DNA from: Candidatus Omnitrophota bacterium
GTDB taxonomy: Bacteria > Omnitrophota > Gorgyraeia > Gygaellales > Profunditerraquicolaceae
Direction: 5' to 3'
DNA: 64,000 bases
Assembly (NCBI GenBank): GCA_043812955.1
Contig: JBDRLN010000018.1
Span: 13,849-77,848, forward strand
In this document: in pieces, positions 10,101 through 45,900 of the stretch
Layout of the letters: each line of letters opens with the position of its first letter
How positions within the stretch are numbered: position 1 is the first letter of the stretch
The notes under the pieces: model-generated
Databases searched by the model: none
What the model was told of the DNA's origin: nothing
Seen by the model: the letters and a program-made list of their open reading frames with translations, nothing else
Position numbers and translations under genes: made by a program

Positions 10101-10142
10101 AAAAAATATTAGATTCCCAGCGGGAAAACTTTTAGTTGTAAC

Positions 10143-10212: not shown

Positions 10213-10219
10213 TTAATGG

Positions 10220-22605: not shown

Positions 22606-22697
22606 CAGTTTCTCCTAAGATATATTGCTTTTTTTAGAGAAATATATATTAACACAATAGTTTATTTTTGTCGAGTGTTCTATTTTTAACCCTTCGT

Positions 22698-22730
22698 CCA
22701 CCCCGTAGGTGTCTTACACCTACGGGGTGG
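22698..22730. repeat. Repeat family C hairpin, second perfect copy (CCACCCCGTAGGTG tctta CACCTACGGGGTGG)
   Basis: Identical 33-mer to 13092-13124, sitting in the divergent msbA / comFB-cheR intergenic region. Confidence 0.8.
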
Positions 22731-22787
22731 AGCTGGTTCATAAATATTCTTTTAAATAGTACATATTTATGCTATAATTTTATCCCT

Positions 22788-24176: not shown

Positions 24177-24887
24177 TTAACCTTTGAAATTCCTGGCCAG
24201 GCTCATTAGATCCGCCCGCTCCAGGTTAATTCCGCAGCGAAAACCAGAGGCGCCGGATCCTTCTGACCAGACTACCTCACCCCGGGTATAAAGAGGCTCT
24301 AGTCTATCCGGAATATTCAGCCACATCTCTAACGAAGTATTGGGTAATAATTTTTCTTGAGTAACCAAACCCATCCCCTTGGAACTTATATCTACTGATT
24401 TAGCCAGGCCTTCCCGGTCAGCGCTGGACTCAAGAAACCTAAGAGGCAGCTCCATAGGAAAACGCGCGAATATTCTTTTATCCTCAAAATTCTGGCTCTG
24501 CAGCATAACCTCTTCTCCTGTTTTAAGGCCTTCCCACCAACGCTTGTTTACCTCTTGGGGTGCGGATTTAAAAACGTATTTAAAAAGCTTATCTTTATCG
24601 CTATCCTTGATCTTGATAAAATAAAACCCGTAGTAGTTCCTGCTGTCTATAACCCTATGCCAGACCACCCAGGTTTCTATATCCAGGGTAAAATCATCGG
24701 CCAGCAAAATATTTAAATTCAGAAATTGGTCCTTTTCAATAACCTTAGGCCCCAGAGACAGTTGCAATCCTTTGAAATTAACATCGATCAGACGGCCATC
24801 GACAAAATCACCCTCACCTGCCAATTTTATTTTTATTGGGCGGCTGATCAGCCATCTGGTAATCTTGCGCTGCTCTTTAGTATCCAA
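24177..24887 (-). CDS. tandem PilZ-domain protein
   Basis: 236 aa with two RxxxR ... DxSxxG-type units (RKITRW...DVNFKGLQL; KRIFARF...VDISSKGMGL). It apparently starts with TTG, preceded by an AGGAG. It lies 71 nt downstream of the giant-gene stop on the same strand. Confidence 0.65.
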   Translation of the reverse strand: MDTKEQRKITRWLISRPIKIKLAGEGDFVDGRLIDVNFKGLQLSLGPKVIEKDQFLNLNILLADDFTLDIETWVVWHRVIDSRNYYGFYFIKIKDSDKDKLFKYVFKSAPQEVNKRWWEGLKTGEEVMLQSQNFEDKRIFARFPMELPLRFLESSADREGLAKSVDISSKGMGLVTQEKLLPNTSLEMWLNIPDRLEPLYTRGEVVWSEGSGASGFRCGINLERADLMSLARNFKG

Positions 24888-24957: not shown

Positions 24958-27900
24958 CTACGGCCTAATAGCAATAAATCTCATCCCTCCATAATAAAAA
25001 GTATTATACATATCATTAATCGCCTCGATTACCCCTATTTCTTTGAGGCTTTCTACATCAATCGGTTTAATATCAAGCCGGGGGTTAACACTTTTTAACT
25101 GTTCAAAATCAAACCTGCGGCCTTCATTTTTAACCAAAGCCAAAGCTATTGTTTTATATAAAATCCGGAAATTATTACTAATGGGTATCTTATTATAATT
25201 ATTTCTGCTAATTACCTTTGTTTTAAGCGATAATTCCTCCATAGCCAAATGATTAATTCCGTCGACATAACTCTTATCAACCATATCAGCCATCATAATA
25301 TCGTTTTCCGCCTCCTCAAATAACAGATTGAGTTGTGCCGCGTCTTCCTGGCTGAGGGCTTTACCTAAAATCCATCTTAATTCTACTTTAAACAATAATT
25401 CTTCAACCGATAACAAGGCCAGACTAGCTTTAAGATGAAACCCCCGGGCAAAATACCTGCTGGCATAAGAATCACTCTGCATTATCTCGGCAGTATATTC
25501 CGGAGTAAGCGCTAAGTTTATTTTTTCCTTAGCCTCGGAATATTTACCCTGTCGATTTAAGGCATCGGCTAAAATTATATGGCTTAAAACCAGCCAATCC
25601 TGTCTTTTATGATTCACCAACCATCTCTTAAACTTTAATAGTTCTTTTGCGTTATTTTCTATCTCCTGATTTAAATATACGCCTCCTACGTAGAACTTAT
25701 TTTTAGTCGACATTTTATCCAGATATTGGATTTTTTCAAAAATATACCTGGTCCGATTATCAGCGCCCTTAGACAAGCGGACTGCTTCATCAAAATCCGC
25801 TAGACACTCTTTAAGATTGCTTTTATCAAAATTAAGTATGGCCCGGATATAATAAGCTACCGGAGAAAAAAAATTCGGCGTATTGATAATCTCTTCGAGT
25901 TTATCAAAAGCCTCTTTAGTAAATCCTCTTTTTTTCTCGGCCAGTTTAAGATAAAAATCTTTCATTTTTATATCCTGCGGGTCATATTTAAATAGCTCGC
26001 CCAATAATCCTAATGCCAACGGATAATTCTTCGGTTCTCCTGATATAAGTTTTGAATTAATGATCCGGTATAATTTTTCCTTGTGCTTGTCAACAACCGG
26101 CGACGACGAGGGACACCCTTTCAGCCAATCGAGGGACACCCTTTCAGACAATCGGGATGATGTCCCCTGCTGTTTTACATCCAATACCATAGCCACCAAC
26201 GCTCCCATTCCTTGCCACGCTGGCAAACCTAATCGGGACACGCTGTCCGAGCCAAAGCGGACACTGTGTCCTAGAGCGGCCGGCGAGCTAGAACAAATAT
26301 TAGCTACTTCTGCAAGAAACCTTAATGTTTTTCTAAACATAATCTTGCCCACTCTATCCTTGCACCAAAGCGCCTTGCCAATATCCAAAGCCAAGGGATT
26401 ACAATCAAGCTTCCTTCTCTTTACATTAGAAAACCAGTCCTTCTGTAATTTGGCATAGTCAGACCCGGTAAATTCAATTTTCCCCATGAGCTTGACATTA
26501 ATAGTATTTAAGTCAAACTGTTCATCTTTGCTATTAAATACGTGGCCGTGGCGCCACATAGTTTCATCAAAGTATGTCCTGATAAACAAAATAACAGGCA
26601 AGTGTTTAAGGTCTTCTTCTGCGGCATCAAATTTATTTTTAATTTTCTTCATGCCTAATAGGAAAACCTCAAGTATCATCTCCTCTAAGAACTTCTTAAT
26701 ATTATTTTCTTCTATTCTGTTGCTTATAATATAAACATTGCCGTAAAATTGCTTAGAGTCGCTTTCCATTATTGAATTAAATAATGACTGCGGCATGCCG
26801 TGAATACCTATATCAGGCAATCTTTCAATTAATTTTTTTACCTGGATTTGATCTTGCCGTAGATTATTTTTAACAGCCGGCGAGCTTCCAACGCAAAGCG
26901 TATCGCCTGCCTGCCGATCAGGCAGTAATCCGTCACTTCTTCTGGCGGAAGACTGCGCCACCGGCAAGGCGGCCGGCGAGCTGGAGCGAAACGTACCCCG
27001 CGACGAGGTAGTTCCGTTTAATCCCGTATTATTTAAAGCCGCAAAGGGAAAGGTATATTCTTCTTCTATTTTCACCTCAAAATCCGCCAACCTCTCCTGC
27101 GCTTCTATAACGCATCCTATCCTGGAATTACTCTCATCCAGATCAACCATCTCTCCGACTAAAATTATCCTTTTCACTCCCAGTTCAAACTTTAATATCC
27201 ATCGTAACCTATCCCAATTTGTAGATAAGCCAACCGGGCAAGCCATCCCTTCCAATTCCACGGGCTCCAAATCATCTAAATAAGTATTAATTAAAATCCC
27301 GTATAAATTATATTTTCTAAATAATTTACCTGCCTCTGTCAATAAATCCATCTTTGGCTTTAACCTGATTGTACTTTTAATATAACGCTGGTCTCCTATC
27401 CCGGCGAATATGGGCCCAGGATAAGACCGGACACGATCGGATAACCTATGAATAAAACTCCGATAACCTCTAACGGCATTCCCTCTTATTGCTTTCCGCA
27501 GTATCAAGGGGACTCTCTTAAAATTCCTGCTGATATAATCATCTAACACATTTTCAAAAAATAACGGGTGGCTCCATAATATAATCTCGTGATTATTCCG
27601 CGAAATACTCCGCCGTAATTCCTCTGAGGCTAAAACTGTGGATATCGGGATAAGCCTTTGACCATTGCCTGCAGGCGGACTGGAAGGTTTAGGCCCTAAC
27701 CTATTGACGCTCCGATCAGCTACAAATTTGGAGGCAAACCCCAATAAAACCCTACCTAACCTAAGGAATTTAACCGGCGAGCTTCCTTTCGGCACTGGCG
27801 AGGCGGAGGTTTTTTGGACTAAGGGAACAGCTGTGCCTGCAGATTTACCCAGCTGATAAATATATCTAAAAGCCTCATCTGGATTGTCACAAGAACTTAA

Positions 27901-30900
27901 AAGCGCTAGATAGCCAAGGGCATCGGCATAATCATATACCCACGCATTGAACCTCTCAGTTAGAATTTGAGGAATTATATAATCGCCAGGCCCAAGCCCC
28001 TTAAATACTTCGTCCAGTTCGCTTAACGTATCTACTCCTCTTGATTTAAATCTCGGGTATTCATTAATAGTAATTATTTTTCTTAAAATGGCCTCTTTCT
28101 GCCGAAAATTAAGCTTAGGCTTAATATGTATTACATCCACCAAGTGCCAATAGGCAGCCCCTGCATAGCTAAATTTATACCCTTTAATTTTGTAAAAAAT
28201 CGTATTGGCATAAGCATGGGCTAACAAAGGATGGTCGGGCAATTCTAGAAGATGGGCCATTTCGTGCGCCATATACCAATAAAAAGCGGTTAATCCTTCG
28301 ACATTATCCTTAGGTATAATTATTCTGCCTTTAATTGTTACCCCCATAGAGGGAGACACAGGGAAGAGAAATTTGTTTATATGCCAGACTCCCGCAATAA
28401 TAACACTCAAACCTAAAATGAATTTACCAAAACCCCTTCTGGATAATATTTCTTGAGGGGTTGTTGCCTTTGCCCCAAAGTATAAAGCCAAACCCGATAC
28501 CCCTAAAAATCTTGCCTCTTGAAGTTTCTCTTGACCTTTTTCAGAAAATCTCGGGTGGTCGAGCGACCGAATAACTTCCTGACAAATTTCTTCTTCCGAG
28601 AATTCCTTAATCGGAAACCCGACAAACCTAGAAGCCTCTTTATATGCATCATATACATCTAATACTACTGGTTTTAGTTCTGGTTTAATTTCATCCCCTT
28701 TACTAAATAGAAAAACTCCGTCATAGAAAAGTTCTTTAAGTAGGTCTAGATAGGCGAATATCATCCCATATATTTTTAAACTTTTTAAGAACCCCCGCCT
28801 ACTTTGTATACCCTCTATAGAACCCTCTGCTGCAGAAGAAGATACAGAACAAATACCTTTATCGGATTTGCCTGATAACCTATTATTTGGCAATGGTTTA
28901 GATAGAGCGTCTCTAGAATCTCTTACTGCCGGCGAGACAAAGGCCGGGCTGGAAGATGTTTTATCCATTGATATGCCTAATATATTTTCTATAAAACTTT
29001 CCGGCCAGCTGAAATACAATTTAAAATCTATATTGTTGCCTTCTTTAGCTGTAAACATAAACTCAGGGACCCAAGAACCATCTTTCCTCAAATACCCTTT
29101 TGTCCTGGCGGGGTTAATTTCAAGCAGTGCAGAGTGGCCGCGAAATGACAGGGCAAAGCGCGCTAATTTAAATTCTCTCCCCAGCCGCGCTTCTAATTGA
29201 GTTATTGAAGGTAAATACCCGGAAGAAACAATCAGAATGGTTGCTTCTTGCGGGCTTATATTATTATTTTTTAATTTGGATTTCAGACTCCGGATAAAAT
29301 AATCCAGATCTGCGTCTTTGTTCTCCCTGTACTTTAGGTAAACCTGCGCCAAGGCAGCAATTTTTCTGTCTTTAGCAATAATGAGGTAGGCGTCTTTACT
29401 ATTTAAAACATTGGAGACAAAAGTTTTATTATCGTTGCCTATGCCGCGAAACTGGTTGCCGGAGCTAAAATTGTCTATAGAAGAGGTAAATAAAATTACT
29501 ATCGCTGCTGCTATTAAAGAAGGATATTGTAGACGCTTTACGTAATCTATTACTGGAGAAGATGTTGCAGAATAAATACTTCGAACTGAACCTGTTGGCC
29601 CGGCCTTATTCAACCCTCTTTTGGCGATATAATTTAAAAATAGTGAGCTGGACTTATTAGTTATTATTTGATAGTTCATAGTTAATAGAGAAGCATCTCC
29701 CATTAAACTACCAACTACTAACTGCGTACTATGAACTAAACTAGCCGGAGAACTGGTAGTTGGTACGGCCAGATAGACGAATTCAAAATCCGACTTTCTT
29801 TTGCCGCTAGAAGTAGTAAGCAGGGCTTTGGTGATTGATTCTAAACTAAGGCTGCTTCCATAAAGATGGTAACCAACCCCTATCTTAAATCTCTCTTCCA
29901 TGATGCCGAAATGTTCAAACAAAGCTGGACGCTGCGGCAAATAAACATAGTATTCATTTACTGAATGCCCTAATGCCTTTCTTAGCATGCTATAAATAAG
30001 AAAAGAGCCTAACCCTATTCCCCGGTAACACTCTTCCTCTACCTGAAAATAATACCTTTGCTCTGTTCCCATCTTCAGCTTACCTTTGCGGATATGAAAT
30101 AAATTATATCCTACCCACGCTTCATTAAAATCAGCTTGATCAACTTTGAGAATTAAATGATAAAATTGCTCGTCACTAAAAAATTTGACAAAATTCCGAT
30201 TTTCCCTTATTGCAAATATTCCCTTCTTATTCTTTACACCTCCGATGAGTTCGCCATCCATTGTCTTAAAGGGCAACTGTCTTAGTACCATCTCTAATAA
30301 ATTTTGGGCGTCTATATTTTTACCCGACGCCGGTGAGGCGGCGGTATATTTAGCGTTTAGCGAATAACGGTTAGCAGATAGATCAAATAGACTACTATAC
30401 ACTCTACGCTCCATGCTATCCGCTGCTTTTTCCACCGGTGAGGCGGCAACCTTTTGAATAATCCTAACTGGCACACACCCTGCGGTAAAGGAAGTCCCAT
30501 CAACAAAAGATTTATTAATCTCACTCGTGCACAAGGACAAGATGTAGTTTACTTTTTTATATTCCCGCTTCATTAATACATCCTTAAATCCTTGCTGCTT
30601 TAATAAAAAATTAACAATCCAAAAATCGTGTTTTGAGGCAATAATAATAAAACCGTTCTTATGCAATAATTCTTTAATAATTTTTTGAATCAAGTTCAAT
30701 ATGGCTTTATCCGCTCCGCCCTTGACATAAGGAACTATGTTCGCGTATAAACCCTTGCTCCAAACAGTCAATCCTTTTACAAATAATACATCTATGCCGC
30801 CCGCCTGTTTTATTTGAGGAAAATATGATTCCGTCTTAAAATTATTCGCGACTATCGTAGTTAGATTTTTTGTCTTCTCTTTAAAAAATACCGGTAAGTT

Positions 30901-33900
30901 CATTTTCTCGCTAGCCATATTTTCTAATGCCTGCGGGCTTTGAACTGTGATGCCTAAACCGAATCCATTAAACATCTCGGCATTAATCCCAAACGTCCTA
31001 GCGGCAAAATAGGAAACAAAATAATCATTGCCGATCGAATTATATAGGACATTGCCTCCTAAGACCCCCATTTTTTTCAGGAGATGTAATATTGTAATAT
31101 AGTGTATAAGGGCGTTATCTAATCTTAACTTGTCATACTTAATATAGTCTCTAGTCCTTAACCATGTTAACGTTTGCCGGTCTAAATGAATTTGGTCAAG
31201 TATCCTTTCTATGTCGTTTTCGAAGAATAAACGGTAGAAATATTCCTCATCTAAAGGCGAGCTGGACCCATTTCCACCCCGTAGGTGGAAATGGTTTGCG
31301 GCTGGCGAGCTTCCGACACAAAGCCTGGCGCTTGCCTGCCGGTCAGACAGGGATCCGCCACGTATTGTGGCGCGGGGCTGAAGCACTGGTTCCTCAAACC
31401 AATTCACTATCAATCTACGGGTTCCCGGGATCATCTCGCCACCATTGATGAGAGGGCTCGATGTCGAGGCGGAACGCTTATCCATTAACATTACCTCCGG
31501 GAAACCTTCACTCAGGAATTTTGCCAAAGTTTCAACTGCGAGCTCCGCATCTTCGCCTTCTGCAATAAGCTTTACCTGGGCTGCGCTTATCCATGAATCA
31601 ACGATAGCATCCGCAACCGCTGCCAGCGAATCCAGTATTTTTTTAAGATTTACGGTTTCATTTTTATGTTCTATATAGATACGGGATAAAAATTTATTAG
31701 CTAGCGCCACTAAATTGCTGATATCATGTTCGTGTACTTCTTCGCAATTATCAACTATACATATTTTTTCTATCCTTTTCAGAGTATTTTCTTCAGGTGA
31801 AGATTTTACCGGCGAGCTGGATATAACAAAACTGCTACTATTTACTTCTGCCATTTTCACTTTATCTAATTTATAATAAGTTGTATATACGGGATCAGGA
31901 ATATTAGAAACAATTCTAAAGGGATCTGATTTTTGAAAAATTAATGGGATGCCTAATCCGGCATTATAATTTACTATTTTCAAACCTTGATGTGGTATAA
32001 ATTTAAAATCTCTTCCCCAAACCTTTATACTCCGCAAAATTGTTTTAGGTTTTATGCAAACTAAATTTGCAAATCCTACTCCTTCCGGTTTCAGCCTCCT
32101 TTTAAGAACATTGTAAACTTCCACTCTATCTTTGAAATATTGGCCAACATTATACCCAACCACAAAGATATCAAATAGGCCGGCCCCCAGAAATAATTGG
32201 CCCTCGTTCAAATCCCGCAAAATAAAATTATTCCTAAGGTGTTGAGAGTATCTTTCCGCCCTATCTAGGTCTATTTTCACTCCTAACCTTTGCATAAATC
32301 GGCCGGCTATACTATTTGCGTCTATTTCAACGAGATCATGCTTCGCTAAGGAGTAAAAACTTATCCCCTCTATATTTATTCTTTCTTTTACTTCCAGCAA
32401 AAACATTAATTCAAAAAGTTCATAACCCCTGCCCGGGCCGACCCATAAAATACTGATTTCGGGATTTCTTTTCATACTTTTTTTAATTCTGCTTAAAATT
32501 GACTTATAGAGATGTCCGTCGAATGCTTGGTTAATCTCCCTGAAAAAGTGGCTAATATAACCTTCAGGATAGTTAATCATCGGCGAGGCGGCGGTATTGT
32601 TCCTTATGGCCGAATTGCGACCGGAATGAATCGTTTGATTGATGGATTCATTTTTTGACTCAATGCCAGACAATGGGCTAGATACAGCGTCTACATCTTC
32701 TTTTTTGCTTAAATTTGAAGATATCGATGAAGTAAAGATAAGCCTGTCCACCCAGAAAAAAATCGCCGCGCCGATTAAATTAGCTATGACCGTCGCAAAT
32801 AAGCTGACGCCTAACCACCAGACAACCAACCACAAAACAGGGGTACTCAACTGCCAACGGATAAGATAAAGAATAAACCTTTTTATTGATAGCCCGCTGT
32901 TCGTTTTTTCTGCCGGATTGCTGGATTCTTTCTCTACAGGCGAGGCGGCGGCATATATGTTATTGATTATAAAACTGGCTGAATAAACGGCAGGGTTTAA
33001 AAACGCAGCTTTAAAAATTAGCAGCGGCTTTGGACCTGCCCTGATAGGACAGCTATCCATCAGCGGACTTGAACCGGAGTTTTCCGTAGAATTATCGGTT
33101 AATGTAATAGCCTGGGCCAAGCTCTTGCCTTCCCAAAGTAACCTGGCTACAAAATATTTGGAAGGTACATCGTATGGAAAATAATAATCCAGCGCTCCAT
33201 ACAGCATCTTTCCGTATTTATAAGTCCAAACCGGTTCTCTTGATAGGTTATCCCATAAACTCACCCTGCTCGCATCCAGTAAATATTTCTGCAATATCCC
33301 TACCGGGACAGCGCTGGCGATCAATTCACCTTCTGAGATATATTTACCTTCGGTTTCGGAAGATTTAATCATCTGAGATAATAACCTTTTTTCTTCTAAG
33401 CGTATAAGATTTATTAAATTCGGCAATCCTTCCCGATGAGCCTTTCTCAATTTTCCTGGCCATAACGCGTGAATAAATTCATGGGCAACAGTTAGTTCGG
33501 AATTTAACTCTACTAAATCTTTTGACCAAAGTTTTCTCCGTTTAACCAATATAGTCCAATTGCCAAGCACGGACTTATAAGCTGTCCCTAAACCCGGACA
33601 ATAACCTCTACCTCGACAAAAATCATGTAGCCGATATTTTACATGCATATAAAAATACAAAATAATCGTAGAAATAGCGATGCTGATTAGGATAGAACTA
33701 AATTCGTTGTCCGGGATTAACCCAAAAGGCTTAATTATAAATTCAGCATATGCCCAGAAAACCGTAAAAGCAGGCAACCCCAACAATAAAAACCCGGCTA
33801 AAAAAATAACCGACTCGCCGATAAAACCTACCATGTTTAACCATGAAGTACGCGGCGTATACGGTCTAACCGTAATTGCCGAAATAAATTTTTTAATTTC

Positions 33901-36900
33901 CTCGGTTGGTATCTCCGGATATAGGCGCGCTGCTATCTCTTCCATTTTTTTGCGAGCAGATTTAGCGTATTTTTTTGAAAAAGATTCTAAACCAATCGCC
34001 TTCTCAATAAATGAATCGATCTTCCGCGTCCATAGCGGCGCAACTCCAAAAACTCTATTTGTTACCGGCGAGCTGGAACAGCCTTCAGCTTCGGATATTT
34101 TCTTCTGGCTTAGGCTGGCCAAATCGGCTATAAGCCGATCGAGTTCTTTTTTAAAAGCTTTTCCTGACTCCTGACTCCAGAAATAATTAAATACCTGGAC
34201 TCTGGATAAACCATTTAGAATATCGCAAAGCATAACTGGATCTATTTTCATTAATGGCTTAAGCCGGCAACAAAGATAGAGGTTAATATCGCTAATACTC
34301 AAATTATGAGCGCCTAACCACATCTCGCTATCCCGGATTAACAAACCTATCTCATGCTCTATCCTCGCTCGCCTATCAACTATTTCAATAGCCCTTAAGA
34401 AAATATATAATTTCTTAAAATATTCCCCCAATTTTAGCTGTAAAGCATTCTTTTGTTCTGCGCTGACGGTTTTCTCGCTACTTTTGATATATTGTATGCG
34501 CAGACGAACATTATTAATTAATTCAACCAATATCTCGCCGGGATTATAAATCTTTTCCTGAAAACCAAACTGGGGATGATTTAAAAACTCTTTTAAATCA
34601 CTGGGATAATTTCTGGCCCCAAGGCGTAAATTACTAGATCTTGCTATAACTAAAGCTTTCTGAATAACTCTGTTGTTATCCGCTGAATCTACCATTGTCA
34701 TAACAGAATTTAAAATACCGCTAATACTTACATCGCTACTCCCTTGAAAAATTTCACTCAGTAGCATTTTTTGTTTTTCCCAATCAGCGCCTATTCTGTT
34801 AAATGCCTCTTCAATTAAACGATTAGACAACAAGCTATTACTCTTAGCAGCCGGTGAGCTGGCAGAAACCATGCTTACTCCGATAATTACATCGAATTTC
34901 GCCCCGCTTAACTGTCTTATTTTGGCGTTGATTATTCTATCCATATACCGGTAGTTCTCGGGTAAAAACCTTATCCCATACTTTTTCTCTTCTTCTCTCG
35001 CAAATGCCAAGGTGGTATCGCTACGGAGAAAATTTTTCATCTGGGCTAAGGGGAACTTCGCAGAGAATCCCTTATTTTCAGTAAAAATAAATTTTGGAAC
35101 TCTGCGCTGCCTAATTCCGGAGCCGTTAAAAATGAAGGCTTTGATTGTCTTTACCACATAACCGTCATCTGCTTCTCCAAAATATACGATATTCCTTATA
35201 TTACTGAATCTGGGTTCGGTAAGCACCTGAAGGTGGGGCCTGCGCAATTTCGAAGTTCCGATTACCTGTTGATATAGCTTACGCAGGGTAAGATGGAATT
35301 TAAATTCAAAAACAGTATTATCGCTGATCGCGTCAAATTCCTTGCCCGCCCCCCTCTTATCATAAAAAATCGGGTTAACTGATTGCACAATGCCCAAACT
35401 TATACCTTCTAAAGTAGTCCCTCTTTTGATGATTGCCTCATAAAGCCCGGATATTTCTCCGGCTAGACCCAGGACCTGTCCATTGCCGCTTTCTCCCTTA
35501 TAAACCCCTTCTGCCATTTTAGTAATGGCATTATTAACAGCCGCTTGGACGACAGATTCATTTTTACCCTTATAAACAAACAGCTTCTGCATCTTAAGCC
35601 ATAATCTGTTAAAAGAGAAATCTCTAGCGGCAAAAGCACTGATTACCAGAAGGCATTCTTTTAATTCTTCCGGCAAGGAAGAAGTTTTTATCTGTGTAAT
35701 ATTTTCAAGAAGGCTTTCAAGCGGCGAGGCGGCCGGCGAGCTGACGCCCTCATGGTATAGCCACAACAAATCACTAATTATCTCAGCCTGCCATTCAGGG
35801 ATTAGCTTAAGAAATGACGCATGTGTTACAATTTCATCTGGGGAATTAATTTTTGCTATGCTGTTATCGGAGAGTTTGAGGTTCGTGGTAATATTTAATA
35901 CCAGCTCCGGAGGGGCGCGGGCTTCTTGAGCCAGGCATACTGCCAGCTTCTGCAAACCAGCTCGCGACCCCAGAGCAATCCTACCTTCAGCTAAAATCAC
36001 GCTATATTTACCATTATTCAATTTAAACTTAATCTTAGCAAACAATTCCTTGCCGTATTCCGTTTCTGCCTCCTGCTGATCCTGCGCAGATACATCCAAA
36101 TACGATCTGATCGGCGAATTTACGCCGTAGACGTATCCGCTTCCGGCGGTGAACTGTGCCGCCGGCGAGGCGGCGCCTTGGCGCAAATCAATAAATTCAA
36201 ACCCCTTAGAACTAGCAATATTGGGTAATCTCCAGGGTGTGTTATTATCAAATGGGGCTTGCGGGTTTACGGCTAAATCTAATACCATATCGAACTCGGT
36301 TTTAATCGTACTCCTCACTAAGCCCAGCTTGCTCCAAAAGTCAAACTGACATGGCAGAGCCTTTAAAACAATAAACTTTTGGAGATTTAGACTATGCGCT
36401 TCCTCTATAATTAATGAGCCTATTGCCGAAAAAAGCCCTTTTTCCTGAAATGACGGACTAATATTGATATCCGCACGCCGGTTATCAATAACCATAGCAG
36501 CTTCTCTTTTATCCACGCGGTAATGACAGTAGCCGCAGAAAGGTCGTTCTGTTTCTATAAATTTATATCCTTCTCCCTGATAAAGTTTATCTTGATTAAT
36601 CCTATGTAAATCAATACTGATTAATGCTTCGCTGGGTATTTCCTTTTGCCTTAATGTAAAAAGCTCTTCTTTAATTAAGACAACCAACTGCAACACGCCG
36701 AATTGTTCTTTTTCTAATAACTCAGCGTTATCTAAACTAATTTTAACTGGCGAGCTGGAACCCCTGGAGCCCGATACCGGCAAAGCAGCAGATGATCCGG
36801 CTAGATAGACGGATTCAAAATCCGACTTTCTTTTGCCGCTAGAATTAGTAAACAAGGCTTTGGTGATTGATTCTAAACTAAGGCCGCGGCCATAAAGACA

Positions 36901-39900
36901 GTAGCCCACTCCTTTTTCCAACCTCTCTTCTTTAATACCGAAATGCCGGAATAAACCCGGCTGCTGCAGATAAACATAATATTCATTTACTGAACGCTCT
37001 AAAGCTCTTCTTAACATACAATAAATAAGAAAAGAGCCCAATCCTTCATTCCAATAATCTTCTTTTATCTTTAAATAACTTTCTCGCTCGTGCCCCATTT
37101 TGAGCTCATTTATAAGAATATAAAATAAGATATTTCCTACTCGCGATTCTTTAAAATCAGGCACGTCAACTTTTAGAATTAAATAATGAAATTGTTCACC
37201 TTGGCTTAAATTGATAAAGGTGCGCTTTTCTCTTACTATAAACATCCCTTTCCTGTTTTTTATGCCTCCAATTAGCCTGCCGTCTATCGCCTTAAGCGTG
37301 ATCTGCCTTAGCGCATACTCAAGGCCGTTTCTTTCAACGCCTGAATTGCCCGCCGGCGAGCTGGAAATTGTATTAAATTCTTGGGGACTAAATAGAATCT
37401 TTACGTCCGCGCCCCGATACAAACAGATCCCTTCTCTCCTTCTTATCGTCCGTCTGTTTAACTCTAAACCATACTGTTTCTTATAAATATCTTCCGCTAA
37501 ATCAGCAACTAAATAAGGGTTCCCGGGAAGGAAGTAGTAATCTGGGCCGAATTCTACTAAGATATCGATCATATCTATAAACAGCCTATTTAAACCCGCG
37601 CTATTTACGGCTTTTCTCAAAATAAAAAACTGGGCATAGGCATATTTATGAAAACCTGCGTCATAGATTGTGTTTGAACTTATAAACTTAAACGCTGATT
37701 TAAAAATACAATATGTGAATTCATTTCTTTGCTCCTGTCTAATCTTTAGTTGATTTAGTAGGACAGCCGCTGTAAATTCTGCAACAAATTCCTGTAATCC
37801 GGCAAAGGCTCTATATTTTGAATCAACGGAAAGCGGATTAGAATTATCCTTTAATTTTACAATAAACGATTGATTAGGGAAAAGAGCGTAAAGCCAATTA
37901 TGGCCTATTTCATGCGCGATTATTCTTAGGATTCCTTCAATACCATGGCTCAAATAATAGCCCTTAAGCCTGGCATAGTCATATTTAAAATTCGCGTTGG
38001 CTGTTCCACGATAAGAACCTATATCTAAATTCTGTATAATCTTTTGCGTAATACGCCTAACTATCGCGGGCGTAAATAAGGTATCTAATGACAATAACTG
38101 TACCGAAAGCGCAATATTCCACCCCAATAACTCTTCTTGAATCATTTTTAGCGTATTGTATTTAAAATACCGGTCTATCTTTTCTCGATACTCCATAGAT
38201 ACAAGTTTCTCGTTCAAATCACTCCTTACCAGATCGATTGAACGCCGTAGCAAAAAATTGATCCGCGAATTAATTAATAGGATTAGTTGATGGGTTCCAA
38301 CTGGCCATTTACCAGTTGCCGGCGAGCTGGCCTGCGGCGCCAGCGGCGAAGAAACAAATTCAAATTCTGATGGGTTTCTTTGGACCTTGATTCTTACACC
38401 AAGATGATCCGAGGCCAAGAAGATTCCTCCTTCATTTTTTATAACTTTTAATCCCTCAAATAGTTTCTTTAAACGTTCCTGATTCACTTCATCTGTTTTA
38501 AATAAAGAACGATACTGGGATATATACTCGTTAAAGGTGGGTTTAATGGTAACCGTATCAACAAAATCTCCATTCTCTGCCCAACGAAACACCCTAAAAA
38601 CAAGATTATAAATATACCAAAGAAACATTATCTCTGGATTTATCGCTGCTAACTCATCATCTATGACTTTATAACTACTCTTAAGCCTCCCATCGGGAAA
38701 TTTTATTATCATTTTATTAACATACCCTACAAATTTGCTTACCCTCCATTCAGACACCGGCGGGCTTGAGTCGAGAACCTCATTTTTTTCTATTTCTACA
38801 AATATTTCCGGGTATAGTTTCTTTAACCATGGCGTAATTTGTACGTCATTTTCTTTATAGATCACCTTAAATCTCTCTCCCAATTCTTCCGTAAATGGCA
38901 ATTGCATGCGGCCATCCGCCAAAGAATGGCCCCTAAGTATGAGCTTAAGCGCTGCGTCAGTAAGTTTAAGGCTAACTTTCGGATTTTCATTTTTATAATA
39001 TAGACTTAAAAGATACCAAACTTCACCGATATATATCGGAATATTTAAAGATTCATGATAAGACATATCTGGCTCTCTTTTTATTACCTCATCCGCGCAA
39101 TAGTTAAACATATCCACAATTAAATCTTCCGGCAGCTGACATAGTATAACGAAAAGTTCTTTATGTACGCTTTCACTTTCTAAAAATAGATAATATATAT
39201 TACTAGGATCAATATAATAATAAGCTTTCATGACTTCCCTTACCCACCTTGCCGTACTTTCATAGTCACCCCCTATCTTAAGATTGCGTAGTTTATCCTC
39301 TATTTCTTGAATAGATATTCCTTTGGGTGGAAAAAGATACCGTCCCTCCTTTAAAACGCTCATATCAGGCGTTCCCCATTTCCATTCCCGCTGCCGCCAA
39401 TAGGGATGCATATTAGTCTCAACCGGCGAGGCGGCGGTTTCACTCCTGACCCTGCTTTCATCCGCCGGCGAGCTGGCATAAAGCGTAGATGCCGGTATTA
39501 TTTTTCCGTCTACGGTTGCATCATTACCGCTAACCAATAAAGCAGAATAATCTCTCCGCAGAGAACCAGTAATGGCTCTGTGAAGATGTGCCGGCAAAGG
39601 CACCTCTTCACCCTGTTCTATCAAAACATTCGTAAAAAATATGGCTTCTGCTCTGTGTTGCGTTAACATGCCACTCTGCGCCGGATCTAAGAGATCGATA
39701 TATTTCGGCTCTACCAACGCGCGGATGTTGTTTTTCAAACGACAATAACGCGTGTCGTCCTTTACGATTTCGAAAAAGATATCAAAGTTTTCTTGTGTTA
39801 TACACTCGCAGACATAGGCAAGCTTATAAATACCCATTTTTACCGCGTATAAAAGCGGTATATTTTTATCCCAAGCCTCTATTCCTATGCTCCATGGTAA

Positions 39901-42900
39901 AGAAATAGCAAGGTTATCTTTCGCACGCAAACCTCCCCGTTTACCATAGAGGGCCATCAGGATAGAGTACGGCTGGTCTCCGCGCGAACAACCCAGGGAT
40001 TTTATGGTGAGGTGAAAATCTTTTTTCTTTTGTTTTTCTGGTACGAGCATATTGAGAAAGTTATCTAGATTCCATCGGTCAACGAATCTAAACAATGTCG
40101 ACATTTTCTCAGCTTCATTCAAGGGCACAAAACCGTTAAAAATCGCTCTGGTAATATAGCGGCGCTCTGTAGCATGGTCAGCCCCTGTTTTTTCGAGTAC
40201 CTCCAGATACCCGGTCAAATCGGTCTTCCAAGAACGGGCGCGCGATGCAATAAAATCCTGACATACCTCTGCCAGAAAGACTGGCAGCTCGACAGTAGCA
40301 AGACGGAAACTAAACACGGGTATTGTTTGATTTATGAACTGAGACAGATAATGCAAATCTTCGCCATTAAGAATAAAACGGATAACTTCCTCTGTTTTTT
40401 TATCCGCCGGCGAGCTCCCGCCACAAGGCGTGTCGCCTGCCTGCCGATCAGGCAGGGATCCGCCACGTATTGTGGCGGAGGACTGATCCACCGGTGAGGC
40501 GGCGATCTTAGTTAATTTATACACAAAGATACCGCCAAACGGAGCACTTAAGACGTGGAAACAATCTAAAACAGAATGCCTAAATTTACCTTTAAGTTCT
40601 TTGGCTAACCGCAAAGCAGGCGGATACTGTGAACGTAAATCCGGATAAGGTATTATAATTGTGCCATTTTTCTTAAGGAAGCCGGGAGACTCGGTAATGA
40701 AACGTGAGGTTAACCTGAATTTAGGATCGTGCGTAGCAAGATGTTCCGGTTTCTCAATAGGCATATCTACGAAAGGCGGATCAAATATTATGTAATCAAA
40801 TTTTCTGTCATTAGGAATGTTAGAAAAAAGATCGCTTACGATAGCTTCTGCCTTGTCTTCCAAGCCGGTAATTCTAAAATTCAGGTTAGCATTATCTACT
40901 TGCTCTTTGAATGCGTCAACCGCTAAAACAGAACCGCCCTTCAAGGCGGCTATTATAGCTTGAATGCCGGAGCCTGTGCCCATATCCAAAACTTCCTTAT
41001 TCCTGAAATCCGCCTTATTGAACAGCGCGTTTGCTAATATTGCGGTAATTAACATATCAGGTGGGTATGTTCCCGGAAAACTAACGATTACCGGAACCGG
41101 TTGGTCCGGGAAATACCTTTTGATCCCAAAAACGATTGTGTTTAACTTGAATTGGCGCTTAGTTACTGAAACTACATCCTCTGATTGGCCGGCCGGCGAG
41201 CTGGAGTGTTTCTTTTTTAGGATCTTTTGTTCAAAATATTCTTCTATTATTAATGCCGGGTCGACCGGCAAACTGGATAATTTACTAGGGTTGTCCGCCC
41301 GCAAAACGGCGTCCTGATTAATATCTATCGATACATAAGAATCAGTGTGACTTTTTGATTCACGTAGAATTCCTACTAAACACTTAACAATAACGGTTGG
41401 AATGGCAAAAATTAAATAGAAGGAAAGATAGAACTGCCAGGTAAAATAAGGTTCGGCTGCCACAAGATATAAATCTAGAATAAAAGCCGTAAGCCAGGGG
41501 ATAATGATCAACTCTGAACTCGTAGACCAGTACGTAGAAATAAATTTTAAAACAATAGGATTAATCTTTTCTTTAGAAAAAGATATTTGGATTTCTCCTT
41601 TGAAGAACAACGTCAGAAATGTTTTTAAAGAGATTGATTCCCAAATTATTTCTTGCGGCAATAATTTCTTAAGAGTAAAGGGGATGTGCAAGATTCTCCA
41701 AAGGTTAAAAGTTATCCAAGTTGAAATAAAAAGTGAGCCAAACATTCCATATGTCAATATGAGCGGGCTTTTAAAATTCCAGCCATTAAACCAAAATAGA
41801 AATATTAGATTCGCACTTCCAACAAAACCGCCTACTTCAATCAAAGAAGGCACCATGATCTGGCCTATAAACCACCCTATCTTCGGCAATCCGAATTTCA
41901 TAAATAGTTTTTGAAGGTAGGAATAAAATCGTTGTAAGAACGGCCAGCCAATGAATACTACATTGACTCTTGGTATATTGGAACGGCCAACCGGAGAGCT
42001 GGAGGGGCGCAAATAAATTTCTACCACTGATTTCAATATTTCTATTTGTTTTTGTTCCGGCAATGTAAAAAGGTAGGGATTAATTAAAAAACGTGTTAAG
42101 GAACGGTGGGCTATAATAATATATTCCGGAGGTGCGGTAGCCATATGATAACTAGTCAATATTAAACGATTTTTTAACTTTTCCTTCATGCCGGAGACAG
42201 CGCCGGCATAATTATCGCCATATAATAAATAAATTGATTTGGGTAATCTTAACGGCCCCATTACACTCAGTTTAGAACATTCCTCTTGGACAAATGTATG
42301 GATTATGTCAACCCTAACTCCGAACTTTTGAATTAATCTGCCTGTTATTATATTAATATCAGCAGCATCTACCCTCTTCATCTTTGGCCATAATCTAACA
42401 GATAATAATTCAGTTAACGTTGCCAATTTTATCTTATCATTATTATCTTTGGAAATTTCCGCCGGCGAACTGGAATAAAATAGCTCCCATAAACCTTTTA
42501 TCCGCTCATCTACAGAGACTGCCCGACTTCCGATAAACCAAAGACTGCTCTTTCGGGCATTAGGAAATCTATCATAAACAATACATTTACCTATCCTGAT
42601 AGAATCTCCGATTGCTTTCTTATTTTCTCTAAGCCATCCTGCTAATGAATCGTCATACCTGGATGAATCTTCAGCAAAGATTTCTTTATATGCCCCTGCT
42701 ATTTTGCTAAATTCTTCCTCTAGAATACCAAACCCCCCAGGGTTAGCTGTAATAGGCAACATAAGATAAAATTGCGCGCCGGGCTGATTTTCCCTGTATT
42801 TATGTGCAGCTATACTTTTAATAGCGTTAGCAACGCAGGTAGTTAGGTTACATCCAAATATAATAAAATGTTTCCCGGCAAAGAATTCTTTACGCAGCTC

Positions 42901-45900
42901 GAATTCACCTGCCCCAATCCATCCGAAAAATTCGTTTGATATATTGGATTTTTCCTCAATAATACGGTTGTCGTCAACGTTTTGCATGACCTCTAATTTA
43001 TAATTAAACCCGGTAAACAAATCACCAATCTTATCTGCCATCTTATCTGCCCTAGCAATATCCAGTTTGCTTATCAGGCCTTCCGTATGTACTCCTATAA
43101 CCCTATAATCTTGCGGGATAAATAAACGCTTTACCAGCGGCGAGGCGGCAACAGGTGAGCCGGGAAAACCGTTATTTACAGCTTGAGTAATACTATTTAA
43201 AAAATCCCGGTTGATAAACGCATTTTCTTGAACAGGTAACAGCCGGCTCAAAATCATCCTTAATATAGCTGGATGAATATTTTCCTCTTCCAAGGTGGAA
43301 ATAATCCCGTAAACCATCAGACGTTCTCTTAAAGCCATGCCTTTTTTGGTACGTGCAACAAGGCTGACTTGCGTTGCTTCCTGATACCGCCGCATGGCTT
43401 CTAACACCGTAATTGCCCCTAATCCTTTCTGGATTGGGCTCCCAAGCTCAATACATAATAAACGAAGTTTATCTATATCGTAAGAATAGTCGAGCCAGCT
43501 TATCACTTTATTATTTTCTACCTCCATTACTTCTAACCTGCTTATTCCATTTGGCTCAGGCCCGTTATGCGCGGGGTAAAAAACATTTAAAAGTATATTT
43601 TTAGCTAGCTCTGCCGCACCATTATTAAACCGAAACGTGGATCCTTTATAAACATCCTGCCAGAGATGTTTCCACTGGCTGAGTCCACTAGAAAGATACT
43701 CCGCTGGCGAGCTGGACTGGCTTACGCCTCCCCGAGCCATTTTTTCCGCCCAAGCCTTATTGAGCACTCGTTTTATTACAGGTATACCTTCTGCGGGACA
43801 ATAATTCTTAGATTCGGCAGCTATAATACCTTTTATTTTTATACCTCTTGCTTCCAACGCCATAAATAGCTGGCGGGCTTCCTGCAATAAGATATTCTCT
43901 GGAATATCAACTCTTCGCCCAATTATCTGCCCAGTATTGTCAAAATCTATAGCCCAAGTCCCTTTGTGAAGGAAATAATCGGAACAGATACTTACCCAAG
44001 CTGGTTCATCTATATCGGGCAGTTCACGAAAAAAACTCCTCACTGTAATCACTTTAATCCCTTCAATAAACCGTCTTGGCACTTGCTCTATCTGATAAAC
44101 GGGATGGATCAGAAAATAATCTTTTATCTGTCCCGTAATTTCGCCTTTGGTAACCCAATTACTTTCGGTTCTAAAAAATGGCTTGTTAGCTTTTATAGCT
44201 TCGTGGATTTTATGGTCTCCTCTATCCGCATGAAAATCAAAGATTAAGACAATTTCGTCTTGTCCAAGCATATCCAGTGTTTTATCATGGGTATCAACAA
44301 AGATTATGCCTGAAGAAAACATAACTTCCACCGGCGAGGCTGAACTATTAAGCACCTTAACTTCATATAAGAAAACAGGATGAGAAAAACTTGTATCTGC
44401 GATTTCAACCTTAACTAATTTTGCGATGCCGCTCCGGGAAAGCACTCTTATTGTTTCTTTTTCTGCTGTTCCCAATTTATCGCCTAATATTGCGGCGCAA
44501 AAAGTCTGGCCGGTATATATAAAATCAAAAACATTACTCATAAACGGAATATTCCGGACATCCGCCTGCGCAATAAAAACTCTAGAGCGCTCTTCCCCTG
44601 TAAATTTATTTAACTCCTTGCGCAAATTACGGATATTTTTATCCCAAAATTCAATTACGTATATTTGAACATCGGGAGCGGTTATTTCCAATAAATATTT
44701 TACCTCTCCCAGCGTAGGGCCGGGTCCTATCACACATATACGCTTAACACCCTCCGGAAGATATTTAATCGTTGTTTTAATAAGGCTATGTACAAATGAA
44801 CGCTCAGGAAAGAAATAATCTAAGAGGCTTCTTCTATAATAGTAACGGCCGGCAAGTCCCGGGTAATCCCTTAAATTATTCCTTACCGGATCATTGTATT
44901 TTTTAAAAATCGGCGAGGCCGCGGAATATATGTTATTAATTATAGTGTTGGCCGAAAATACGGAATGGCTTATAAGAAATGTATTTTGCGGATTTTCCAC
45001 ATTAATAACAGGGCTGCTGGTTATTTTCTCTATTTTCAGGTGAGTTGTTACTGCGCCTTTTACACCCCCCTGCATGATCCTTCTTAGAATATTTTCGATG
45101 GCTTTTTTGTCTTCGGGGTATATGATTCTTTCTAGCAGTCTTTCCAGCCAAACAACAGATTCCTTAACGCGTAATAAATATAAGCTATCCACCGCAGAAA
45201 ATACTTCTTCCCTGTTGCGAACAAGGTCGGCTTCCAACATCCGCATTAAACAGCTAACTATCTGTGCTTTTTCTTTATCATTTAGCATATTGTTAAACCA
45301 CTTCCTAAAACTAACCCTTATCTTCTTTTTTGCATCTTTCATTGGTGCCCTATCAAATAAATAAGGTATAGCTATATTTCGAAACAAAAATCTTCTTAAA
45401 TCTTCATCATTCGGAATTTGTAGATCTTTCTTTTCTTTCCGCAGTAAATTCCTTATATTGCTGACATCTTCAACGCTTAATCCCTGGCCGTGCGCCTTAA
45501 AAATTGAAGCCAAAAATAAACTCAACCATGTTTCTTTTTCAAGCCCCTTTCTTCCGATCCCTAAATTGTTTAATCTCTTCAGATAAAGTTCTGGATTAGA
45601 TATTGGAGATTTGGTCTGCGCCAGCGGCGAGCTGCTGAAAACAGGCAGATTGATTTTATACTGCGGCTTGCTTCTTACTTCTTGGCCAACAACAAAAGTA
45701 AACCCGTCAGGAAGGATACTGCCTATTCTGGTAACCAATGTTTCAAAGATAAATTTGTAATGCTTAGAAATATCATCTTCTTTTAATCCTATCTTCTTTC
45801 TTATCGCATCTATTTCTTTAAATGTAATTTTGTCCTTTTTTTCTGAAACAAGCTCAACTGAATGTATTCGCCAATTAACCGTTAGCCGAGCTATGTACTC

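What the first reader, a model, noticed from the sequence alone, without database searches (positions are those of the whole stretch)
29750..37356. Recent intragenic duplication of a GNAT-like module; TPR-like modules also paralogous
Modules at 36758-37356 and 29750-30331 are collinear at the protein level, and more than 100 nt of DNA is nearly identical (36801-36900 versus 29772-29870). The same is true, more divergently, for the helical modules at 47830-48985 and 24961-26200. This shows the giant gene is growing by internal module duplication, bounded by the SSP linker motif.
Basis: seen in the sequence. Interest (0 to 1): 0.6.

Follow-up and report, generated by a model that had tools for sequence, protein, structure and literature searches.

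The report
Old module duplications in giant gene
Two pairs of related protein modules inside a giant bacterial (Omnitrophota-type) gene of more than 13,000 codons are real but old duplicates. Only about 100 bases in one pair look recently copied, and the short serine-proline linker that bounds them also marks where whole modules are gained and lost in related giant genes.

Summary
The minus-strand ORF 24958-63975 (13,005 codons, still open at the window edge) holds two paralogous module pairs. One is a divergent GNAT-fold module: aa 8871-9087 vs 11212-11431, 55% aa and 74% nt identity. The other is a TPR-like helical module: aa 4995-5387 vs 12623-13005, about 35% aa identity.

"Recent" is not supported.
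- For the GNAT pair, dS is about 1.1-1.2 and dN 0.30.
- Copy B is closer (70%) to the single copy seen in another Omnitrophota MAG than to copy A (58%).
- The helical pair is older still.

Only a roughly 100-nt tract is young (36798-36898 vs 29766-29866, 93/101 identical, pS 0.10 vs 0.61 elsewhere, permutation P=2e-5). Ectopic gene conversion explains it best.

The duplicated units do run from linker to linker. The linker is [S/A/G]-S-S-P-[V/A/L/I], found 53 times against about 3 expected, and usually encoded AGC-TCG-CCG-G.

Duplication is a minor growth route: 2 of about 48 segments. Related Omnitrophota giant genes share modules in a different order. They also differ by whole-module indels whose junctions fall exactly in the linker, and 89 of 167 homology-block ends lie within 10 aa of a linker against 12.5 expected.

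Giant multi-enzyme Omnitrophota genes are already known. I did not find the linker or its role as a junction described in the papers I could read.

The parts
24958..63975 (-). Giant ORF of 13,005 codons. It has no in-frame stop before the window edge at 64000 and begins inside a SAM-methyltransferase domain, so the 5' end is cut off by the window. It consists of about 48 segments separated by SSP linkers.
36760..37365 (-). GNAT-fold module, copy A (aa 8871-9072), including its 5' linker SSSPA.
29746..30342 (-). GNAT-fold module, copy B (aa 11212-11410). It runs from a degenerate 5' linker AASPA to the 3' linker TSSPA.
36798..36898 (-). Near-identical tract in copy A (93/101 nt identical to copy B). 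Proposed gene-conversion tract.
29766..29866 (-). Near-identical tract in copy B, the partner of 36798-36898.
37353..37364 (-). Linker DNA motif CCAGCTCGCCGG (exact) at the 5' edge of copy A.
36747..36758 (-). Linker motif CCAGCTCGCCAG (1 mismatch) just 3' of copy A. The position that aligns with the 3' linker of copy B and of the homologues has decayed to AALPV in copy A.
29745..29756 (-). Linker motif CCAGTTCTCCGG (2 mismatches) at the 3' edge of copy B.
30328..30342 (-). Degenerate linker GCCGCCTCACCGGCG (AASPA) at the 5' edge of copy B. It aligns with TCCAGCTCGCCGGCG of copy A.
47824..48996 (-). TPR-like helical module, internal copy (aa 4994-5384). It is bounded by SSSPV on the 5' side and SVSSPV on the 3' side.
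24961..26109 (-). TPR-like helical module, C-terminal copy (aa 12623-13005). It starts at SSSPV and ends at the stop codon of the giant ORF. A homologous module also ends the Omnitrophota protein P0006.

Best explanation
The window carries part of an Omnitrophota-type giant multi-enzyme gene (at least 13,005 codons). It is built from about 48 independently folding modules joined by a fixed pentapeptide linker, [S/A/G]-S-S-P-[V/A/L/I], usually encoded AGC-TCG-CCG-G.

Shown:
- Two modules were each copied once, as units running from linker to linker. One is a divergent GNAT-fold (acetyltransferase-like) module. The other is a TPR-like helical module whose second copy is the conserved C-terminal cap of this protein family.
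- Both duplications are old. The GNAT split is at least as old as the divergence from the nearest available relative, and the helical split is older.
- The copies have diverged under purifying selection (dN/dS about 0.3).

Inferred:
- A later ectopic gene-conversion event between the two GNAT copies overwrote about 100 nt near their 3' ends.
- The dozens of co-oriented, same-frame copies of a 10-12-nt GC-rich linker sequence act as junctions. Recombination between linkers, filtered by selection, yields in-frame duplication, deletion, insertion and reordering of whole modules.
- Duplication is only a minor outcome of this process. Turnover of unrelated modules dominates.
For: Paralogy.

GNAT fold:
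- A 7-sequence profile hits GNATs among PDB sequences (5kgh, E 4e-4).
- The AF2 model has pLDDT 77.9.

Age:
- A-B dS 1.08 and dN 0.30 over 168 codons. B-L001 dS 0.85 and dN 0.18. A-L001 dS 1.55.
- Identities are B-L001 70%, A-L001 60%, A-B 58%. There are 34 sites with B=L001 but not A, against 14 with A=B but not L001.
- Baseline dS between the window and L001 for other shared modules is 0.67-1.4.
- Helical pair: dS saturated, dN 0.67. L001 has the A-type at 71%. P0006 has a C-terminal copy that is 39% identical to B-type and 33% to A-type.

Conversion tract:
- 7 mismatches in 31 codons. Permutation P=2e-5. pS 0.10 vs 0.61, Fisher P=1.7e-5. The same codon is used at 24/26 identical residues, against 49/87 elsewhere.
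- The tract is not the most conserved part of the family at protein level.
- It has no unusual RNA fold.

Linker:
- 53 SSP against ~3 expected from composition (expected value is my calculation from the composition). The other 22 ORFs of the window have 1 in 7,493 aa.
- A logo from 129 sites shows conservation only at five positions.
- TCG is used at the second Ser in 39-70% of linkers, against 5-9% background, in all six genes.

Junction role:
- L003 equals L002 minus 1,464 nt, with the break inside two identical GCCAGTTCGCCG linkers. A second case removes 174 nt.
- The window has the radical-SAM and helical modules adjacent, where L001 has 1,638 extra nt between two AGCTCGCCG linkers.
- 89/167 homology-block ends lie within 10 aa of an SSP, against 12.5 expected.
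- Module order differs between the window and L001-L005.
Against: - Only one close relative (L001) is available, and its contig ends inside the module. Its genomic context is not conserved, so calling it the orthologue of copy B rests on sequence distance alone.
- A much faster rate in copy A could mimic an older split. However, dS is also high.
- The first 18 nt of the tract are identical in L001 too. In the L002/L003/L004 clade, pS in the equivalent stretch is somewhat below average (0.08-0.23 vs 0.21-0.41). Some nucleotide-level constraint therefore cannot be excluded.
- Block ends could coincide with linkers because selection removes out-of-domain breakpoints, not because recombination prefers the motif.
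- The block-end counts are not independent observations.
- Whether the two copies arose within this gene or came through another giant gene of the same lineage cannot be told.
Confidence: 0.7

Rival explanations
1. The GNAT duplication is recent, and the gene is currently expanding by tandem-like internal duplication of modules.
For: A ~100-nt stretch is 92% identical. The two copies are each other's best match within the window. The window ORF is the only gene examined that shows two copies.
Against: dS is 1.1-1.2 outside the tract. Copy B is closer to L001 than to copy A. The copies lie 2,340 codons apart with unrelated modules between them. Only 2 of ~48 segments have full-length paralogues. 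A 2026 preprint on Omnitrophota long proteins likewise concludes that repeat architectures are mostly old duplications and not recent expansions (10.64898/2026.06.07.730766).
Confidence: 0.07
2. The near-identical ~100-nt tract is kept by selection on the nucleotide sequence itself, for example an RNA element, an internal regulatory site or a codon-level translation signal. It is not the product of gene conversion.
For: The first six codons of the tract are identical in A, B and L001 at all synonymous positions. pS is mildly reduced in the equivalent region of L002/L003/L004. Nucleotide-level preferences clearly exist elsewhere in this gene, in the linker codons.
Against: There is no significant predicted RNA structure (z -1.6 and -0.05) and no Rfam match. 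The tract's protein sequence differs strongly in the L002 clade and in P0002-P0005, so no deep constraint exists. Six codons is a small sample, with a chance probability of roughly 0.05 by my estimate.
Confidence: 0.15
3. The two copies are not an intragenic duplication. They were brought together by module exchange between different giant genes, in the same genome or by horizontal transfer, using linker-to-linker recombination.
For: Module order is shuffled between relatives, and whole modules come and go at linkers. The module family occurs in several different Omnitrophota giant proteins and once as a free-standing 184-aa protein.
Against: A and B, together with L001, are far closer to each other (58-70%) than to any other family member (23-44%). 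Their common ancestor was therefore within this lineage. Nothing in the window distinguishes an intragenic from an intergenic origin.
Confidence: 0.2

Closest known systems
Omnitrophota giant proteins: 'Archaeovorin' type (West-Roberts et al. 2023, bioRxiv 10.1101/2023.11.21.568195) and the 'multi-enzyme metabolic cluster' class (bioRxiv 10.64898/2026.06.07.730766)
   Same: A single ORF of tens of kb that tiles many unrelated enzyme domains: methyltransferases, radical SAM, GNAT, TPR and a few transmembrane segments. All sequence relatives found here are from Candidatus Omnitrophota MAGs. Repeated domains are described as the rule and mostly as old duplications.
   Different: Neither paper's text contains 'linker'. 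The 2026 preprint also has no 'motif', 'cleav' or 'shuffl', and the only 'motif' in the 2023 paper is in its reference list. The 2023 paper states that information on cleavage points is lacking. The SSSP linker, its codon bias and the linker-exact module indels are therefore additions to those descriptions. No SecA-DEAD or peptidase domain was seen in the part of the gene inside the window.
GNAT (Gcn5-related N-acetyltransferase) superfamily
   Different: Below the Pfam gathering threshold (12.7 bits vs 20.7). Only 5 relatives exist among 1.84 billion representative proteins. Copy A has W where R/Q is expected in R/Q-x-x-G-x-G/A. Activity and substrate are unknown.
Module duplication, recombination and gene conversion in modular polyketide and non-ribosomal peptide megasynthases (from my own knowledge of that literature; not checked here)
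   Same: A very long ORF made of modules. New modules arise by duplication of whole units, inter-module regions serve as recombination junctions, and conversion tracts occur between paralogous modules.
   Different: No carrier-protein, ketosynthase or condensation logic is present. The modules here are unrelated stand-alone enzyme folds, and the junction is a fixed 5-residue, ~12-nt motif instead of a variable docking or linker region.
Viral and other polyproteins with a short conserved cleavage motif between mature products (analogy only)
   Same: A strictly conserved short peptide sits at every boundary between independently folding units, with no conservation beyond about 5 residues. In the model the module ends are low-confidence and probably disordered.
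   Different: There is no evidence of cleavage, and no protease was identified in the window.
Tetratricopeptide (TPR) repeat proteins
   Same: Weak matches to TPR_2, TPR_8 and TPR_1 (best E 1.4e-5) and to the PP5 TPR domain (E 0.15) in the N-terminal ~120 residues of the helical module.
   Different: All matches are below the Pfam gathering score in the window copies. About 270 further residues have no match. No structure prediction was made.

Membership tests
GNAT superfamily | GNAT alpha/beta fold (mixed beta-sheet with the beta4-alpha3 acetyl-CoA cradle) | tested here: met
GNAT superfamily | Motif A pyrophosphate-binding signature R/Q-x-x-G-x-G/A | tested here: inconclusive
   Read from the alignment. 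Copy B (R-G-I-G-L-G), P0001, P0002, P0003 and P0005 fit. Copy A has W-N-E-G-L-G and P0004 has H-N-R-G-I-G.
GNAT superfamily | Sequence match above the Pfam gathering score (PF00583 or related) | tested here: not met
   Best is 12.7 bits (E 0.16) for copy A against a cut-off of 20.7. The best E among the 7 members is 0.033-0.038. The profile against PDB sequences gives GNAT hits at E 4e-4.
GNAT superfamily | Acyl-CoA-dependent acyl transfer activity | not testable with these tools
   Needs a biochemical assay.
Omnitrophota giant 'Archaeovorin'/multi-enzyme proteins | Encoded in an Omnitrophota genome | tested here: met
   Inferred from relatives. The three genome loci (L001-L003) are Candidatus Omnitrophota MAGs. 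P0001-P0004, P0006 and P0007 are named Omnitrophota by NCBI. L001 shares the radical-SAM module at 80% aa identity. The window's own genome was not found in the collections.
Omnitrophota giant 'Archaeovorin'/multi-enzyme proteins | Single ORF above the papers' length thresholds (>=30,000 aa for giant proteins in West-Roberts 2023; a >=10,000-aa class is also tracked in the 2026 preprint) | tested here: inconclusive
   13,005 codons are open within the window and the ORF runs off the window edge. This meets the 10-kAA mark. The full length is unknown.
Omnitrophota giant 'Archaeovorin'/multi-enzyme proteins | Many distinct enzyme domains tiling the polypeptide (methyltransferase, radical SAM, GNAT, TPR and others) | tested here: met
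   Pfam finds several methyltransferase types, Pol-beta nucleotidyltransferase, ELFV dehydrogenase, alpha/beta hydrolase (weak), B12-binding plus radical SAM, CheR-like, HPr and TPR.
Omnitrophota giant 'Archaeovorin'/multi-enzyme proteins | Numerous transmembrane regions and a divergent SecA DEAD-like domain (West-Roberts 2023 abstract, recalled from my own knowledge; one search confirms only the SecA mention) | tested here: inconclusive
   A crude hydropathy scan finds 5 TM-like segments. There is no SecA Pfam hit in the 13,005 aa visible. The N-terminal part lies outside the window.
Recent intragenic (tandem-type) duplication | Low synonymous divergence over the whole duplicated unit, with the copies as sister sequences relative to orthologues | tested here: not met
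   dS is 1.08-1.24 outside a 31-codon tract. Copy B groups with L001 and not with copy A.
Ectopic gene conversion between paralogues | A contiguous tract with significantly lower divergence, synonymous sites included, than the flanking homologous sequence | tested here: met
   7 mismatches in 93 nt against 169 in 579 overall. Permutation P=2e-5. pS 0.10 vs 0.61.
Ectopic gene conversion between paralogues | Phylogenetic incongruence of the tract versus its flanks, using orthologues of both copies | not testable with these tools
   The only close relative (L001) ends 18 nt into the tract.

The most novel reading that the evidence does not exclude
The [S/A/G]SSP[V/A/L/I] linker (AGC-TCG-CCG-G) may be a dedicated module-junction signal of a clade of Omnitrophota giant genes, and not a passive spacer. 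At the DNA level it would be the in-frame crossover point that lets whole enzyme modules be inserted, deleted, duplicated and swapped like cassettes. At the protein level it may be the missing processing site that turns these giant ORFs into bacterial polyproteins, or a modification or translation-pause site. The GNAT and TPR-like duplicates would then be two by-products of that cassette system.
Probability: 0.25. Interest if true: 0.85.

Novelty: new variant of a known kind. Interest (0 to 1): 0.5.

Why it matters
In itself the duplication is ordinary: old paralogous domains inside a modular giant protein, plus a small conversion tract. It matters for what it exposes.

- Every module boundary carries the same five-residue, ~12-nt linker, which is specific to the giant gene.
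- Related Omnitrophota giant genes differ by whole-module indels whose junctions lie exactly in that linker.

This gives a concrete, testable mechanism for how these genes, the longest known in bacteria, are assembled and remodelled without breaking a reading frame of 39 kb or more.

It also supplies candidate cleavage or processing points. Published work says such information was lacking (10.1101/2023.11.21.568195). Existing metaproteomes could be searched for peptide termini at SSSP sites, and the linker could be used to cut giant proteins into units for structure prediction.

Tried and rejected
- Word-index protein searches with copy A and with the PrmA-like methyltransferase module found nothing, although homologues exist. 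These results are not evidence of absence.
- An exact look-up of the window's PurA found no source contig.
- The first AF2 run, with only the two copies as alignment, was unusable (pLDDT 41). The two-sequence profile against PDB sequences gave only noise.
It worked with 3 sequences.
- Rfam at gathering threshold found nothing in the window.
- The RNA fold of the conversion tract is not distinctive, so an RNA-structure explanation was set aside.
- One literature search that included the term 'linker' was uninformative. Kizina et al. 2022 (PMC9004380) is not held, so I could not check whether the V. archaeovorus paper mentions such a linker.
- I considered whether the giant ORF could be an artefact of the genetic code or of assembly. 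I rejected this because 39 kb is free of all three stop codons and five independent related loci are likewise open from end to end.
- I considered a larger segmental duplication around the GNAT copies. I rejected this because no neighbouring segments are similar.
- The short repeats R, S and T were looked for in L001-L005 and not found.


Full report
**What is in the window.**
The minus strand carries one ORF from 63975 down to 24958, 13,005 codons long. No in-frame stop lies between its listed start and the window edge. The translation begins inside a SAM-methyltransferase domain whose homologues in related proteins have about 55 more residues upstream. The gene therefore continues beyond the window.

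Pfam finds a patchwork of unrelated domains along the ORF:
- several methyltransferase types
- a Pol-beta nucleotidyltransferase
- a full ELFV glutamate dehydrogenase
- a weak alpha/beta hydrolase match
- B12-binding plus radical SAM
- CheR-like
- HPr
- TPR

The remaining 22 ORFs of the window are ordinary chromosomal genes of a diderm bacterium. They include PilZ, ComFB-CheR, an MsbA-like transporter, the Kdo/Lpt cluster, trigger factor, ClpP, SerA and PurA.

**Checking the observation.**
I cut the ORF into overlapping 300-aa pieces and ran BLASTP against the whole protein. This gave exactly two long off-diagonal matches:
- aa 8871-9087 vs 11212-11431: 55% identity, E 1e-67
- aa 5001-5365 vs 12630-12998: about 33% identity, E 8e-42

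BLASTN gave 73.9% over 536 nt for the first pair. The best segment is 36798-36898 vs 29766-29866, with 93 of 101 identical and exact runs of 32 and 29 nt. All other self-matches are short (30-75 aa) repeats that sit next to linkers.

**What the modules are.**
Neither GNAT-like copy reaches a Pfam threshold, and a word-index search found nothing. A full HMMER scan of 1.84 billion representative proteins with the two-copy profile found only five relatives. Four lie inside large proteins annotated as Candidatus Omnitrophota. The fifth is a free-standing 184-aa protein whose ends coincide with the module ends.

The helical modules are collinear from their SSSPV linker to the end. They have weak TPR matches in the first ~120 residues. 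The second copy is the last module of the ORF. The Omnitrophota protein P0006 also ends with such a module, and that module is slightly closer to the window's C-terminal copy (39%) than to the internal one (33%).

**Dating.**
For the GNAT pair, Nei-Gojobori estimates over the whole alignment are dS 0.91 and dN 0.34. Over the 168 codons shared with locus L001 they are dS 1.08 and dN 0.30. B vs L001 gives dS 0.85 and dN 0.18. A vs L001 gives dS 1.55 and dN 0.29.

Protein identities are B-L001 70%, A-L001 60% and A-B 58%. At 34 sites B and L001 agree against A. At only 14 sites A and B agree against L001 (p=0.0055). Other modules shared by the window and L001 show dS 0.67-1.4.

The GNAT split is therefore at least as old as the split between these two organisms. 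For the helical pair, synonymous sites are saturated and dN is 0.67, while L001 carries the internal type at 71% identity. 'Recent' is not supported for either pair.

**The near-identical tract.**
Divergence is strongly non-uniform along the GNAT pair. One 31-codon window (A 36805-36897, B 29773-29865) has 7 mismatches in 93 nt, against 169 in 579 overall.
- Codon permutation gives P=2e-5.
- pS is 0.10, against 0.61 elsewhere (Fisher P=1.7e-5).
- At identical residues the same codon is used 24 of 26 times, against 49 of 87 elsewhere.

This stretch is not the best-conserved part of the family at protein level. That part is the G-[LI]-G-S region. The tract has no unusual predicted RNA structure.

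The best reading is an ectopic gene-conversion event between the two old paralogues. Two caveats apply. The first six codons of the tract are also identical in L001. In the L002/L003/L004 clade the equivalent region has somewhat lower pS than average. I therefore keep nucleotide-level constraint as a rival at about 0.15.

**The linker.**
SSP occurs 53 times in the ORF. About 3 are expected from composition (my calculation from the counts). In the other 7,493 aa encoded in the window it occurs once, against 0.9 expected.

A logo from 129 sites in the window and four related loci shows conservation at exactly five positions and none outside them. The counts are [S74/A23/G13]-S-S-P-[V58/A31/L24/I10].

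The encoding is biased. In the window the second Ser is TCG in 33 of 53 sites, against 9% background (p=1e-21). The same bias holds in all five related loci (39-70% vs 5-9%). The DNA motif CCAGCTCGCCGG with up to 2 mismatches occurs 40 times against 2.4 expected, and 35 of the 40 lie on the minus strand inside the giant ORF. The 53 SSP triplets are all in the ORF frame.

Both duplicated units run from linker to linker:
- Copy A starts at an exact motif (37353-37364).
- Copy B starts at a decayed one (AASPA, 30328-30342).
- Copy B ends at TSSPA (29745-29756). That position aligns with the terminal SSSP of the homologues and with a decayed AALPV in copy A. A further motif follows 14 residues later.
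- The helical copies both begin at SSSPV. The internal one ends at SVSSPV.

**Related loci and the mechanism.**
Scans of GTDB genomes and JGI metagenomes returned five loci. Three are named Candidatus Omnitrophota MAGs. Each locus is a single open frame from end to end (3,503-6,862 codons) with 10-25 SSP linkers. They share subsets of modules with the window, but in a different order.

Between close relatives, whole modules are present or absent with junctions exactly in the linker:
- L003 equals L002 with 1,464 nt removed between two identical GCCAGTTCGCCG linkers.
- L003 also lacks 174 nt between two further L002 linkers.
- The window has the radical-SAM and helical modules adjacent, where L001 has 1,638 extra nt between two AGCTCGCCG linkers.

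Over eight pairwise comparisons, 89 of 167 internal homology-block ends lie within 10 aa of an SSP, against 12.5 expected. These ends are not independent observations.

I infer that the many co-oriented, same-frame copies of a 10-12-nt GC-rich sequence serve as crossover points, or at least as the only tolerated ones. Recombination there duplicates, deletes, inserts or reorders whole modules without breaking the frame. Within the window, phmmer all-against-all of 48 linker-delimited segments finds only the two full-length pairs. Duplication is therefore a minor contributor to the gene's size.

**Comparison with what is known.**
Giant ORFs are a recognised feature of Omnitrophota (PMC10066038; 10.1101/2023.11.21.568195; 10.64898/2026.06.07.730766). 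The 2026 preprint describes a 'multi-enzyme metabolic cluster' class whose co-occurring domains include methyltransferase, GNAT and radical SAM. It reports that 65% of Pfam-positive long proteins repeat a Pfam domain, and it concludes that the repeats are mostly old and not recent expansions. My dating agrees with that.

Neither of the two giant-gene papers' texts contains 'linker'. The 2026 preprint also has no 'motif', 'cleav' or 'shuffl'. The 2023 paper's single 'motif' is in its reference list. That paper says outright that cleavage points are unknown and asks whether the products are cleaved.

I could not read Kizina et al. 2022. I therefore cannot claim that the linker is undescribed everywhere.

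**Verdict.**
- It is wrong on age and overstated on duplication as the route of growth.
- The duplication itself is unremarkable.
- The linker-exact module turnover it points to is the more interesting result. It yields testable predictions about how these giant genes evolve and whether their products are processed.

Noticed in passing
window 24958-63975 (minus strand), e.g. 37353-37364, 34065-34076, 31809-31820, 26973-26984: The inter-module linker is conserved at the nucleotide level as well as the peptide level. AGC-TCG-CCG-G is used far more than codon usage predicts (TCG in 33/53 linkers vs 9% background). The same bias is seen in five related Omnitrophota loci. The motif is absent from the other 22 ORFs of the window.
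   Followed up: yes
L002 13097 and 14561 vs L003 8350; L002 16313 and 16487 vs L003 9511; window 48993 vs L001 3977 and 5615: Whole-module presence/absence differences between related giant genes have junctions exactly inside the linker. In one case the flanking 12-nt linkers are identical, which is compatible with either microhomology-mediated deletion or cassette insertion with linker duplication.
   Followed up: yes
window 40400-40505, 31295-31400, 26870-26975 (minus strand): A ~100-nt GC-rich in-frame repeat (79-83% identical between copies) ends in the linker motif and contains two short palindromes. Predicted RNA folding is strong for two copies (-56 and -52 kcal/mol, z -3.5 and -3.1) but not for the third. 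It encodes a mini-segment '...GSLPDRQAGDTxCxGSSPA'. It was not found in L001-L005.
   Followed up: partly
window 55953-56020, 44907-44975, 32939-33002; and 59306-59371 vs 26210-26275: Two more families of short (about 65 nt, 77-86% identical) in-frame repeats lie between closely spaced linkers. Two 23-nt tandem duplications lie at 59312-59360 and 26107-26154.
   Followed up: partly
window 61222-62469 (aa 503-918), 31509-31769 (aa 10736-10822), 51106-52149 (aa 3943-4290): Core metabolic or regulatory domains are embedded as modules of the giant ORF. They include a complete ELFV-type glutamate dehydrogenase (E 1.6e-46), an HPr domain and a B12-binding radical-SAM enzyme. The last is the most conserved module relative to L001 (80% aa).
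   Followed up: partly
window 63976-64000: No stop codon precedes the listed TTG start. The ORF begins mid-way through a methyltransferase domain, so the gene extends beyond the window and 13,005 aa is a minimum length.
   Followed up: yes
window 22668-23888 (+) and 24177-24887 (-): A free-standing ComFB-CheR methyltransferase gene and a PilZ-domain gene lie immediately downstream of the giant ORF. The giant ORF itself contains a CheR-like module (aa ~7967-8120). A possible functional link was not examined.
   Followed up: no
window aa 7489-7537, 10049-10110, 10380-10398 of the giant ORF (about nt 41365-41511, 33646-33831, 32782-32838): A crude hydropathy scan finds five transmembrane-like hydrophobic segments. 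Two pairs and one single segment lie between the two GNAT copies or just upstream of copy A. The topology of the modules was not analysed.
   Followed up: no
L002/L003/L004 GNAT-module region (L002 9959-10630, L003 3787-4434, L004 9959-10600): Synonymous divergence between these orthologues is mosaic: pS ranges from 0.00 to 0.71 in adjacent 20-codon windows. This suggests frequent recombination between orthologous giant genes of related populations.
   Followed up: partly
window 8328-10223 (-): A 631-aa ORF in the housekeeping flank has no Pfam match.
   Followed up: no
window 33680-34174 (+): A 164-codon ORF lies antisense to the giant gene. It is most likely a chance ORF. It was not examined.
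   Followed up: no
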